From NCBI GenBank assembly GCA_000002445.1, contig CH464491.1:4864001-4928000 (forward strand): 64,000 nucleotides of DNA, written 5' to 3'. Below are positions 12,001 to 15,000 of the stretch, piece after piece (position 1 is the stretch's first letter; each line of letters starts with the position of its first letter). Made by a program: the position numbers. The DNA is from Trypanosoma brucei (lineage: Eukaryota).

Positions 12001-15000
12001 TTTAACTATACATCTAGTTCTCTCATTACAACTACTTTGAAATAAAAGCATCTGATCAATTAAAATATGTATTATATTAATCTAAACTGTTTCGCTTTTT
12101 ATATTTTAAACTTGTGAAATCTGTGTTTCACCACAGAAGTCAATGGAAATTATTGCAAACCTTCAACACAAATCTTGTTTATTACAAGTTTTTACTTTAA
12201 GATATTTTCTATGCCATACTATATGCATAACTAAAACATCTACCATAAATGGTTTTTGCGTCAGGCTACCTTTTTTGACCCTTGTTGTGCTTCCACATGT
12301 GCAAGATGAGATAAAGGTGACACTTCGGCCGTACACATAGTGTCGTGCATTTCGCAATGTTATCATAGTTACTTTCTGGTGTTTTTTTCTATATTTCGGC
12401 AGATACAGTCCTCAATGCACTTTTCCGCTTTGACTTTTATTTATACGCTCTTTAAATCTAGTAAACGTGTATTTTTATGTAAAATAATTGTTCCTTGAAA
12501 TATCCAACGGTTTATCGTTGAGTTTCTAGGAGAGAAGTGCAGCATAATTTGAAATATATTTTATAAAGATGTTCTGCGTTCTTTTCTGCGCGTTTTCTTA
12601 ACTTCTTTTGATCATTTTCCTTCAACTTTAGTGAGTACCTCTTCCTGCATTCGCCGTATTGGTAAACTTTGTGGATACATTTGACCGTTGGCTGCGGTCC
12701 CTCTCTTCATGCTTACTTCATCCTGTTTCTTTCGTATAATGTTTCGCCGTTTATTTCTGCGTTTTACAGTGCGTATAATCCACTCCACTCCCTGCACATT
12801 CTTTATTCGTAACATTCCTAGTATCTCCTTCTAAATTTTTACATTTACTTAATCACACTGCACTTCGACATTGTTTTGTGCTTCTCTAGCTTTGATATCA
12901 TAGGTTGTGGGGAGGTGATAGTAGCTTGTGTGTCGTTTGCACCTTCTAAATATTGCGTCCATCGCGTTACCACCCCCGAAACCAACATCGGTATTGCCGT
13001 CAGGCGACATACCATTTCAGCCGAATAGTTAGGGTACGCCTGAGGTTTGTCCGCCAACAAGTTCCTGTTTATGCCTCCGGATTGTTGTGTCAACATAGAC
13101 TTTTGTAGCCATGTTGGACGTGCTTGTTGGTCCCACAGTTGCTTGGACTGCTGAAACGGCTGGAAGGAAATCTTTAGTTGTGTAGCCCTCACAATTTGTA
13201 AACTTTAAACAAATTCCGATACATAAACGCATCACCACACACTTGTACATATTCAAACTTTAATTCCCCTCCACGTATCAAATAAGTTTCAAAATTTCCC
13301 CCTGATCCTTCGAATTTAAATTCCATTTCTTCCCACTCTTTATACCAAGTAAGATTTTTCACAATAAGTCTTGCTTTCTCCTCCAATACGATCGGCTGCT
13401 TTGAAAAATGAATGAATGGAGTCTCTTCGATTTCTCCACTATGTTGAATAGTAAATAATCTCCCCTCATAATCTAATAAAATCCAATCCTTCCTTTCGTA
13501 AACACAAATCTCTTCCCAACAGCTTATTAATAACTCACACTCCATATTAGTAAATGTAATATAAATTCTTTGATTCGACCACCACTCCTCGCTTCCTTAG
13601 TATTTCATTAAATGCATGTTCAAAACTCTTTAAAGCCCAAACCCTTTTTTTACTATTAAGCCTCACTAAGATAAGGTTTTACACTAGGAAGTTATTTTAG
13701 TAAAACGGATAACTTTTTATCCTCTTCCTTTCTGTAACCAACATTAAAAAAACAATAACATCTCTTCACATGCTCCTTGTGATCTGAGTTCATAATCAAA
13801 TCCAACTGAGGTGCGTAACATTCCGATGTTGTCATGAATAAAATACTCTACAGCAGTTTCATATTTATCACAGTCTGATATTATAACATCAGATCCATCT
13901 ACAGTTATTACAATATCTTCATTACTCGCATTCTGTTTTTCCAAGAATTCCATAACCCATCACGGCCTCCTAACATGGATGTACAAACCTCCCATTGCAA
14001 TTGTAATAATTTAAACATGGCTTAGCTTGTCACGCAATATTAGCCTACATCATCCTTGAGTTACATGAGTTTGAAACATAATCACAAATACTCTGGGCTT
14101 TTTAGGGTCGTTATTTCTTACATATTATACATTATCATCATCATTCTCAACAGATATTGAGCTTACACACAGTAAACGTAATTTAAACAGTAATAGTAAA
14201 GTCTTTTATATATCAAATTTCACTCCTTATTTACCTTTAAATTTTGAGAAAATACTATGAGTAAAAAAGAGTTTAACAAGAGAGGTCGGTCGAGCCACGA
14301 AGGTACTTAGCCAATGAATCCTTGCTTACACATGTATATGAAATTCCTTGATACCTCTATGATACTGCTGTTTAATGTTGTTTGCTCAATATCGAAAGCC
14401 AACATATGTCTATGCATTTGCGGGTTTTGTTATAAAAGTTAGCTTAAATCACAGCTGCTGCAGTGTACTACACGCATTTCGCTGTTGTCTCGTATTTTTT
14501 ACATAACTTTTCAATGAATTACTACGGTAATTGTAGCATACATTTACAATATGTGGTTCAGACATACTAATAATGTCACTAGTTTACTTTCATAACACTC
14601 TCAACATCATTTTTGATTATAAGATTCACATAACAATAGTTTCATTATTAATAATACTCCTAATTTTCTTGTTACAGTTATCCTTGCAATAGCAGCTATC
14701 CATTTCTGTGTGAAATGAGGGAAACCACTGACCTCTTCCTGTATACTTTTTAAAAGTTACTGTTGTTTTGCTGTATAGTCATCTGTTTTATTCTGTTCTT
14801 TCTTAACTTCTTAATAAGATGTTGCCGCTTTTCTGTGTAAAATGTAACGGCTTCAATTGGCATGTGCACTAGACTCTGTTTATCTATTTAATATCACACA
14901 TATCATTCCGTGTATAGTGATGCCCATAATTATATTTTTATTTGGCCCTGCGCGTATTCTATTTCCTTTATTTCTGCTCTTCTTTTAATATTCCTCGTGC

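What the first reader, a model, noticed from the sequence alone, without database searches (positions are those of the whole stretch)
12845..14080. Unidentified gene family present as two inverted, independently decayed copies, with conserved upstream DNA
The region 13189..13953 (-) shares protein-level identity with 24956..25780 (+). Matches include WVMEF/YLEKQN(A/K)S(N/D)(E/D)DIVI(T/H)(V/L)DGSDVI(I/V)SD and ..KA(R/K)LIVKNL(T/S)WY(K/R)E(W/L)E... About 100 bp of 5' flank is also shared, for example ccatgtttaaattattacaattgc(a/g)at(g/t)gg(a/g)ggtttgta.

Both copies are broken at different places, and I cannot assign a family from memory. A multi-copy, non-VSG gene in VSG arrays, with a DGSD motif that might be a variant DxD, could be an under-annotated array-associated family or an ESAG relative.
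Basis: seen in the sequence. Interest (0 to 1): 0.5.

Follow-up and report, generated by a model that had tools for sequence, protein, structure and literature searches.

The report
Two decayed ESAG3 pseudogenes in VSG array
The two inverted, broken gene copies are ordinary pseudogenes of ESAG3, a well-known Trypanosoma brucei expression-site gene recently shown to be the enzyme that adds glucose to the parasite's surface coat, and such dead copies are already known to litter the silent antigen-gene arrays.

Summary
Window 14245..13203 (-) and 24701..25722 (+) align at 70% nucleotide identity over 1062 nt (E 7e-123), and there are only these two copies in the window.

The family is not unidentified. 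The repaired translation of copy B hits ESAG3 (expression-site-associated gene 3, 368 aa) at E 1.9e-112 with 100% query coverage. Both loci cover the whole ESAG3 reading frame:
- Copy A, 14223..13192 (-): start codon lost, 8 stops, 7 frameshifts, 26-codon deletion.
- Copy B, 24724..25733 (+): 7 stops, 3 frameshifts, 29-codon deletion.

The "conserved upstream DNA" is the N-terminal coding region (codons about 69-83), not a flank.

Decay is mostly independent. However, two nonsense codons (W59 to TGA, E72 to TAA) are shared. They sit in a 212-nt tract that is 85% identical, which suggests gene conversion or shared descent.

It is the metal-binding DXXD (D110/D113) of a GT-A glycosyltransferase related to LH3/PLOD3. 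A 2026 preprint shows that ESAG3 is the Mn2+-dependent VSG O-glucosyltransferase.

Subtelomeric ESAG3 pseudogenes are already described in the literature (Fam53). Verdict: already known, low interest.

The parts
13189..14223 (-). ESAG3 pseudogene copy A: full-length relic of the 368-codon ESAG3 frame, including the stop codon TGA at 13191..13189
   Evidence: Frameshift-aware alignment to ESAG3 P0001 and tblastn E 5e-70. The start codon is ATG to GTG. There are 8 in-frame stops (residues 6, 34, 59, 72, 89, 204, 259, 260), 7 frameshifts and a deletion of residues 130-155. Identity is 66% aa over aligned codons.
24724..25736 (+). ESAG3 pseudogene copy B: full-length relic of the ESAG3 frame, including the stop codon TAA at 25734..25736
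   Evidence: tblastn E 9e-102, and the search for homologous proteins E 1.9e-112. ATG is retained. There are 7 in-frame stops (residues 15, 59, 72, 230, 241, 350, 351), 3 frameshifts and a deletion of residues 147-175. Identity is 64.5% aa.
13888..13899 (-). DGSD codons (GATGGATCTGAT) in copy A, equal to the ESAG3 DXXD metal-binding motif D110-D113
   Evidence: Coordinates. The motif aligns to LH3 D112/D115. D110N abolishes activity (preprint 10.64898/2026.01.27.701950).
25043..25054 (+). DGSD codons (GATGGATCTGAT) in copy B, the same DXXD motif
14011..14052 (-). Span holding the two nonsense codons that copy A shares with copy B: W59 to TGA (14052..14050) and E72 to TAA (14013..14011)
   Evidence: The chance of two or more shared stop positions is about 0.04.
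24890..24931 (+). The same two shared nonsense codons in copy B: TGA at 24890..24892 and TAA at 24929..24931
13883..14094 (-). High-identity tract in copy A (partner in B is 24848..25059): 85% nt identity against 68% for the whole repeat. It holds both shared stops and the DGSD motif.
   Evidence: Maximal-segment analysis; 0 of 5000 column shuffles reach its score. In the codon windows, residues 41-80 are 87.5% identical.
24848..25059 (+). High-identity tract in copy B, partner of 14094..13883

Best explanation
Both loci are dead, full-length copies of ESAG3 sitting in a silent subtelomeric VSG array of a Trypanosoma brucei-group genome.

The intact gene encodes an ER-resident, Mn2+-dependent GT-A glycosyltransferase related to LH3/PLOD3. 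It uses UDP-glucose to O-glucosylate VSG, and its DGSD sequence is the DXXD metal-binding motif.

Neither copy here can make that enzyme. Each carries 7-8 in-frame stops, 3-7 frameshifts and a 26-29-codon deletion inside the GT-A core, and each has lost some catalytic residues.

Inferred history: the two copies descend from ESAG3 paralogues that had already diverged while still under protein-level selection (dN/dS about 0.35). They were scattered into the array in opposite orientations on either side of a strand-switch region, and then decayed mostly independently. A roughly 212-nt N-terminal tract carrying two identical nonsense codons was either inherited from an already broken ancestor or, more likely, copied between pseudogenes by gene conversion.

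The copies have no coding function. At most they are passive blocks of homology for subtelomeric recombination.
For: Shown here:
- Nucleotide homology of 70% over 1062 nt, E 7e-123, confined to the gene body.
- The ESAG3 hit at E 1.9e-112; the hit's cluster holds 15 proteins, 11 of them named ESAG3 or Esag3, from T. b. brucei (Lister 427 BES clones, TREU927) and T. b. gambiense.
- Full-length lesion maps for both copies.
- Catalytic-residue status. A keeps D110, D113, W242, Q245 and H297, and loses G215, G216 and E244. B keeps D110, D113, G215, G216 and H297, and loses W242, E244 and Q245.
- Context is a VSG array: Pfam VSG domains, 70-bp repeats and an ingi reverse transcriptase.
- Codon position 3 differs more than positions 1 and 2 (124 against 79 and 76 of 317; chi-square p 1.7e-5), and NG86 dN/dS is 0.35.
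- Shared stops at residues 59 and 72 lie in an 85%-identity tract.
- Intact ESAG3 has a sub-threshold Pfam GT_PLOD hit (E 0.005) and an LH3 hit (E 0.029), with DGSD aligned to the LH3 DSYD.
- The AF2 model (pLDDT 79, pTM 0.80) best matches the LH3 GT domain 6wfv at E 7.5e-7, probability 1.00.

From the literature:
- ESAG3 is the VSG3 O-glucosyltransferase, with a DXXD at D110/D113 and H297 (preprint 10.64898/2026.01.27.701950).
- ESAG3 copies lie throughout the subtelomeres and are mostly pseudogenes (PMC6152948).
- ESAG3 pseudogenes are conserved in BESs, and recombination breakpoints fall at ESAG3 loci (PMC2567434).
Against: - No T. brucei genomic DNA could be searched with these tools, so I could not find the orthologous annotated pseudogenes or count copies. 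The look-up of encoding contigs returned nothing.
- The conversion-tract inference is ambiguous. The 85% tract coincides with the most conserved part of the family (the nucleotide-binding core), so part of its extra identity may reflect past selection rather than recent exchange. Two shared stops by chance is unlikely but not negligible (p about 0.04).
- dN/dS was computed on a protein-guided alignment of two decayed sequences and is rough.
- The enzymatic function rests on a preprint, plus my fold and sequence checks of the intact protein only.
Confidence: 0.93

Rival explanations
1. A previously undescribed, array-associated gene family.
For: No Pfam family matches the repaired translations, even at the loose cut-off of E 1.
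Against: The hit to ESAG3 is full-length at E 1.9e-112. All named catalytic positions line up with the ESAG3 numbering. The literature describes subtelomeric ESAG3 pseudogenes (PMC6152948).
Confidence: 0.01
2. The copies belong to the ancestral chromosome-internal GRESAG3 lineage rather than to ESAG3 proper.
For: GRESAG3 (P0017, XP_823173.1, 411 aa) is detectably similar to both copies.
Against: Identity to GRESAG3 is only 26-28%, against 57-66% to BES ESAG3. The location is a VSG array, not the chromosome core.
Confidence: 0.02
3. Both copies descend from a single ancestor that was already a pseudogene carrying W59* and E72*, and all later divergence was neutral. Under this reading no gene conversion is needed.
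For: The two nonsense codons are identical at the same positions, with a chance probability of about 0.04.
Against: If the split came after inactivation, differences should be spread evenly over codon positions. Instead, position 3 is enriched (p 1.7e-5) and dN/dS is about 0.35. A and B are more distant from each other (58% aa) than either is from functional ESAG3 (64-66%). Identity is strongly non-uniform along the gene.
Confidence: 0.2
4. Decay was fully independent. The two shared stops are parallel mutations, and the high-identity tract only reflects past purifying selection on the nucleotide-binding core.
For: The tract corresponds to residues about 44-115, which is the only part of ESAG3 that aligns to LH3 by sequence. 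TGG to TGA is a single transition. All 10 frameshifts, both large deletions and 11 of the 15 stop codons are private to one copy.
Against: The probability of two or more shared stop positions is about 0.04 even before requiring the same stop codon. Third-position differences are also lower in residues 41-80 (10 of 40, against about 0.41 elsewhere).
Confidence: 0.25

Closest known systems
ESAG3 (expression-site-associated gene 3; Fam53) of Trypanosoma brucei, including its subtelomeric pseudogenes
   Same: Both copies are collinear with the 368-aa protein over its full length, at 64-66% aa identity. They cover the signal-peptide region, the PRVFV..QTHATQGW beta1 motif, the DGSD DXXD motif, H297 and the C-terminal ICGDA motif. 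They lie in a VSG array next to 70-bp repeats and VSG pseudogenes, as described for ESAG3 pseudogenes (PMC6152948, PMC2567434).
   Different: The copies are not functional, carrying 7-8 stops, 3-7 frameshifts and a 26-29-codon internal deletion each. They are more diverged from BES ESAG3 (about 65%) than the BES copies sampled here are from each other (P0002 and P0014 are 93-94% identical to P0001).
Human LH3/PLOD3 N-terminal glycosyltransferase domain (Pfam GT_PLOD PF25342; PDB 6wfv, 6fxr)
   Same: It has the GT-A fold of intact ESAG3. The DXXD motif (ESAG3 D110/D113, LH3 D112/D115) and the C-terminal His both align. It is the best structural match of my ESAG3 model and is the homologue named in the preprint.
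   Different: Sequence similarity is below Pfam's threshold (16.5 bits against 27), at about 16% identity. ESAG3 has no lysyl-hydroxylase domain, glucosylates Ser/Thr of VSG rather than galactosyl-hydroxylysine, and is reported to form an 18-mer.
GRESAG3 (chromosome-internal ESAG3-related genes, for example XP_823173.1)
   Same: It belongs to the same superfamily (Fam53), and D110, G111 and D113 are nearly invariant across the family alignment.
   Different: Identity to copies A and B is only 26-28%. The genes are 411 aa, lie in the chromosome core, and are conserved across trypanosomatids.

Membership tests
ESAG3 sensu stricto (Fam53, T. brucei expression-site lineage) | Significant full-length sequence similarity to BES-encoded ESAG3 proteins, and closer to them than to GRESAG3 | tested here: met
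   E 1.9e-112 with 100% query coverage. The hit's cluster is mostly BES ESAG3 proteins. Identity is 64-66% to ESAG3 against 26-28% to GRESAG3.
ESAG3 sensu stricto (Fam53, T. brucei expression-site lineage) | Location in telomeric expression sites or subtelomeric VSG arrays of a T. brucei-group genome | tested here: met
   Flanking VSG A- and B-type domains, VSG C-terminal domains, 70-bp repeats and ingi reverse transcriptase. The species itself could not be confirmed by a DNA match.
ESAG3 sensu stricto (Fam53, T. brucei expression-site lineage) | Intact 368-codon ORF with a signal peptide, that is, a functional member | tested here: not met
   Copy A has 8 stops, 7 frameshifts, a 26-codon deletion and a lost ATG. 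Copy B has 7 stops, 3 frameshifts and a 29-codon deletion. Both are pseudogene members.
GT-A glycosyltransferase, LH3/PLOD-like (applies to the intact parent protein) | Rossmann-like GT-A fold | tested here: met
   The AF2 model of P0001 has pLDDT 79 and pTM 0.80. In Foldseek against the PDB, the top 15 hits are all the LH3 GT domain or mimivirus R699, with E from 7.5e-7 to 1e-4 and probability 1.00.
GT-A glycosyltransferase, LH3/PLOD-like (applies to the intact parent protein) | DXD or DXXD metal-binding motif at the end of beta4, plus a C-terminal His | tested here: met
   DGSD (D110/D113) aligns to the LH3 DSYD. D110, G111 and D113 are nearly invariant in the family alignment. D110, D113 and H297 are still encoded in both pseudogenes.
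GT-A glycosyltransferase, LH3/PLOD-like (applies to the intact parent protein) | Pfam GT_PLOD (PF25342) gathering threshold | tested here: not met
   16.5 bits against a cut-off of 27, E 0.005, covering residues 43-132 only. The relationship is supported by fold, not by the curated sequence threshold.
GT-A glycosyltransferase, LH3/PLOD-like (applies to the intact parent protein) | Demonstrated glycosyl-transfer activity | not testable with these tools
   Reported for BES ESAG3 in preprint 10.64898/2026.01.27.701950: UDP-Glc, Mn2+, and D110N inactive. This is not applicable to the two pseudogenes.

The most novel reading that the evidence does not exclude
The array ESAG3 pseudogenes may not be mere debris. 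They could act as homology anchors or donors: blocks that pair with the ESAG3 copies of expression sites. Copy B sits directly between a 70-bp-repeat remnant and a VSG pseudogene. In that position it could set the upstream boundary of gene-conversion events that move adjacent VSG segments, or it could donate segments to expression-site ESAG3 and so vary the VSG-glucosylating enzyme. The 85%-identity tract shared by A and B would then be a footprint of such exchange.
Probability: 0.08. Interest if true: 0.45.

Novelty: already known. Interest (0 to 1): 0.1.

Why it matters
It matters little as a discovery. ESAG3 pseudogenes in T. brucei subtelomeres have been annotated since the genome and expression-site papers.

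The useful outcomes are corrective:
- The "unknown family" is ESAG3.
- The "conserved upstream DNA" is decayed coding sequence.

The mosaic pattern is a small illustration of segmental exchange among subtelomeric pseudogenes, a process already accepted for VSGs. That pattern consists of divergence acquired under selection, private decay in each copy, and one shared high-identity tract with two shared stops.

Tried and rejected
- Pfam on the repaired translations of both copies gave no family even at the loose cut-off of E 1. The identification needed the large protein search.
- I tried to get DNA of an intact ESAG3 and to locate the window in a public assembly. This would have allowed a three-way nucleotide alignment, a copy-number survey and a look at existing annotation. 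The look-up of encoding contigs found nothing for P0010, for the 521-aa VSG at 28812-30377, or for the 118-aa ORF at 13189-13545. The other DNA collections on offer hold viral, metagenome and prokaryotic contigs, phage and plasmid records and E. coli genomes, so I did not scan them.
I read the frames by eye instead, and Pfam on individual ORFs gave VSG_B hits only downstream of B.
- I considered a larger inverted duplication around the strand switch. It is rejected: the inverted homology is confined to the ESAG3 body, and the only other inverted matches are 70-bp-repeat DNA.
- I considered that the short ORFs (13189-13545, 118 aa; 24956-25321, 121 aa) might be functional mini-genes. This is rejected, because they are simply the longest stop-free stretches of the decayed ESAG3 frame.
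- Small ESAG3-like \"hypothetical, unlikely\" proteins from T. b. gambiense, T. b. equiperdum and T. congolense (P0016, P0035, P0026) are fragments of other diverged copies, not orthologues of A or B (28-63% identity).

Full report
**Observation**

Reading both regions and aligning them shows real homology between a minus-strand locus near 13.2-14.2 kb and a plus-strand locus near 24.7-25.7 kb.
- blastn gives 14245..13203 (-) against 24701..25722 (+), 70.2% identity over 1062 columns, E 7e-123.
- tblastx and tblastn find no third copy in the 64-kb window.
- The inverted homology is confined to this block. The only other inverted matches between the two sides are 70-bp-repeat DNA.

**Context**

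Pfam assigns the large ORFs around the loci to VSG A-type, VSG B-type and VSG C-terminal domains, and to an ingi-type endonuclease/reverse transcriptase. TRF and a consensus search find several arrays of the 70-bp repeat with (TAA)n runs. This is a silent subtelomeric VSG array of a T. brucei-group trypanosome, with genes on the minus strand left of about 14.3 kb and on the plus strand from 15 to 40 kb. The two copies therefore face away from each other across a strand-switch region.

**Identity**

The repaired translations match no Pfam family. The repaired copy B does hit one protein cluster in the 5.8-billion-protein collection at E 1.9e-112, 58% identity and 100% query coverage.
- The hit's cluster holds 15 proteins. 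Eleven are named ESAG3 or Esag3, from T. b. brucei Lister 427 BES clones, TREU927 and T. b. gambiense. The other four are old entries mislabelled as variable surface glycoprotein or variant-specific antigen.
- The chromosome-internal relative GRESAG3 (XP_823173.1) is only 26-28% identical to the copies.
- The copies are therefore ESAG3 sensu stricto.

**Anatomy**

I aligned the ESAG3 protein to each locus with a frameshift-aware dynamic programme. Both loci span all 368 codons.

| Feature | Copy A, 14223..13192 (-) | Copy B, 24724..25733 (+) |
|---|---|---|
| Start codon | ATG to GTG | ATG kept |
| In-frame stops (ESAG3 residue) | 8: 6, 34, 59, 72, 89, 204, 259, 260 | 7: 15, 59, 72, 230, 241, 350, 351 |
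| Frameshifts | 7 | 3 |
| Large deletion | residues 130-155 | residues 147-175 |
| aa identity to ESAG3 | 66% | 64.5% |

It is coding sequence that lies upstream of an in-frame stop.
- True upstream homology is about 20 nt, and homology ends at the stop codon.
- The ORF 12845..13192 (-), which fixes the finding's left coordinate, lies outside the repeat and has no Pfam match.

**How independent is the decay?**

- All 10 frameshifts, both large deletions and 11 of the 15 stop codons are private to one copy.
- W59 to TGA and E72 to TAA are present in both. Drawing stops at random among the 164 columns that are one step from a stop gives two or more shared positions in about 4% of trials.
- Both shared stops lie in a 212-nt tract (A 14094-13883, B 24848-25059). 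It is 85% identical against 68% overall, and 0 of 5000 shuffles reach its score.
- A and B differ more at codon position 3 (124 of 317) than at positions 1 and 2 (79 and 76). The chi-square p is 1.7e-5, and NG86 dN/dS is about 0.35.
- A and B are further from each other (58% aa) than either is from intact ESAG3.

The simplest reading has three steps. The paralogues diverged while functional. Each was then inactivated and decayed separately. One N-terminal tract was homogenised by gene conversion, or is shared by descent. Because that tract is also the most conserved part of the protein, I hold the conversion inference at moderate confidence only.

**What the parent gene does**

- Intact ESAG3 gives a sub-threshold Pfam hit to the PLOD GT domain (E 0.005, 16.5 bits against a cut-off of 27).
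- It also gives a weak PDB hit to human LH3 (6wfv, E 0.029), in which DGSD aligns with the LH3 DSYD.
- An AF2 model built on 19 family members has pLDDT 79 and pTM 0.80.
- The model's best solved-structure matches are the LH3 glucosyltransferase domain (6wfv, E 7.5e-7, probability 1.00), further LH3 entries and mimivirus R699.
- A 2026 bioRxiv preprint (10.64898/2026.01.27.701950) reports that ESAG3 is the Mn2+-dependent, UDP-glucose-specific O-glucosyltransferase of VSG3. It also reports ER residence, a homo-octadecameric assembly, a GT-A fold superposing on LH3, a DXXD at D110/D113, H297, G215-G216, E244/Q245 and W242, and that D110N and W242A are inactive.
- P0001 carries exactly these residues at these numbers.
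- Both pseudogenes still encode D110, D113 and H297. Copy A has lost G215, G216 and E244, and copy B has lost W242, E244 and Q245.

The motif survives in these copies only because the sequence has not yet mutated away, not because it still works.

**Comparison with what is known**

- PMC2567434 describes conserved ESAG3 pseudogenes in expression sites, an "ESAG3 pseudogene 3' of 70-bp repeat" arrangement, and recombination breakpoints coinciding with ESAG3 loci.
- Copy B shows that same arrangement: VSG 22346-23992, a weak 70-bp remnant at 24209-24350, the ESAG3 pseudogene, a B-type VSG pseudogene at 25916-27364, then a 70-bp array at 27658-28268.

**Limits**

None of the DNA collections on offer holds trypanosome genomes, and three exact-protein look-ups found nothing. 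I therefore could not confirm the existing annotation of these very loci, count copies genome-wide, or run a multi-copy recombination analysis.

**Verdict**

The family is ESAG3, and subtelomeric ESAG3 pseudogenes are already known. Interest is low. The only mildly interesting residue is the mosaic signature of exchange between the two pseudogenes.

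Noticed in passing
window 12845..13192 (-): A 115-aa ORF abuts the stop codon of ESAG3 pseudogene A. It lies inside the finding's range but outside the A/B homology and has no Pfam hit. The 2.4 kb between copy A and the next VSG start (about 10735) shows no recognisable coding sequence.
   Followed up: partly
window 24209..24350 (+): A weak 70-bp-repeat remnant (69-72% identity to 31207-31425) lies just upstream of copy B. This places the ESAG3 pseudogene between a 70-bp repeat and a B-type VSG pseudogene (25916-27364), the arrangement listed for BES7 of Lister 427 in PMC2567434. 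A possible similar remnant ("gagagtgtt") lies near 14600-14660 upstream of copy A.
   Followed up: partly
window 42521..45076 (-), with neighbouring ORFs 41216..42505 and 40591..41238: An intact 851-aa ORF with endonuclease and reverse-transcriptase domains (RVT_1, E 6.5e-40), which is an ingi-type non-LTR retrotransposon. It sits in the G+C-richest part of the window (about 0.49-0.52).
   Followed up: no
window 15052..18724 (+): Degenerate ingi-like pieces lie in the strand-switch region between the two ESAG3 pseudogenes: an endonuclease domain in 15052-16176 and a reverse-transcriptase fragment in 16705-17178.
   Followed up: no
window about 14300-15000 and about 40000: There are two strand switches in the array. 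Genes run on the minus strand left of about 14.3 kb, on the plus strand from 15 to 40 kb, and on the minus strand from 40 to 64 kb. AT skew flips sign at the same places.
   Followed up: no
window 20978..21129, 27658..28268, 30702..31377, 58038..58402: Canonical 70-bp repeat arrays (TRF period 81-86) with long (TAA)n/(TAT)n runs lie upstream of VSG genes. Eight close matches to the core consensus were found against 0 expected.
   Followed up: partly
ESAG3 family (proteins P0016, P0026, P0031, P0035): Public databases hold short "hypothetical protein, unlikely" entries from T. b. gambiense, T. congolense and T. b. equiperdum, plus unnamed Logan contigs. They are evidently ORF fragments of other ESAG3-like pseudogenes, that is, mis-annotated relics of the same family.
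   Followed up: partly
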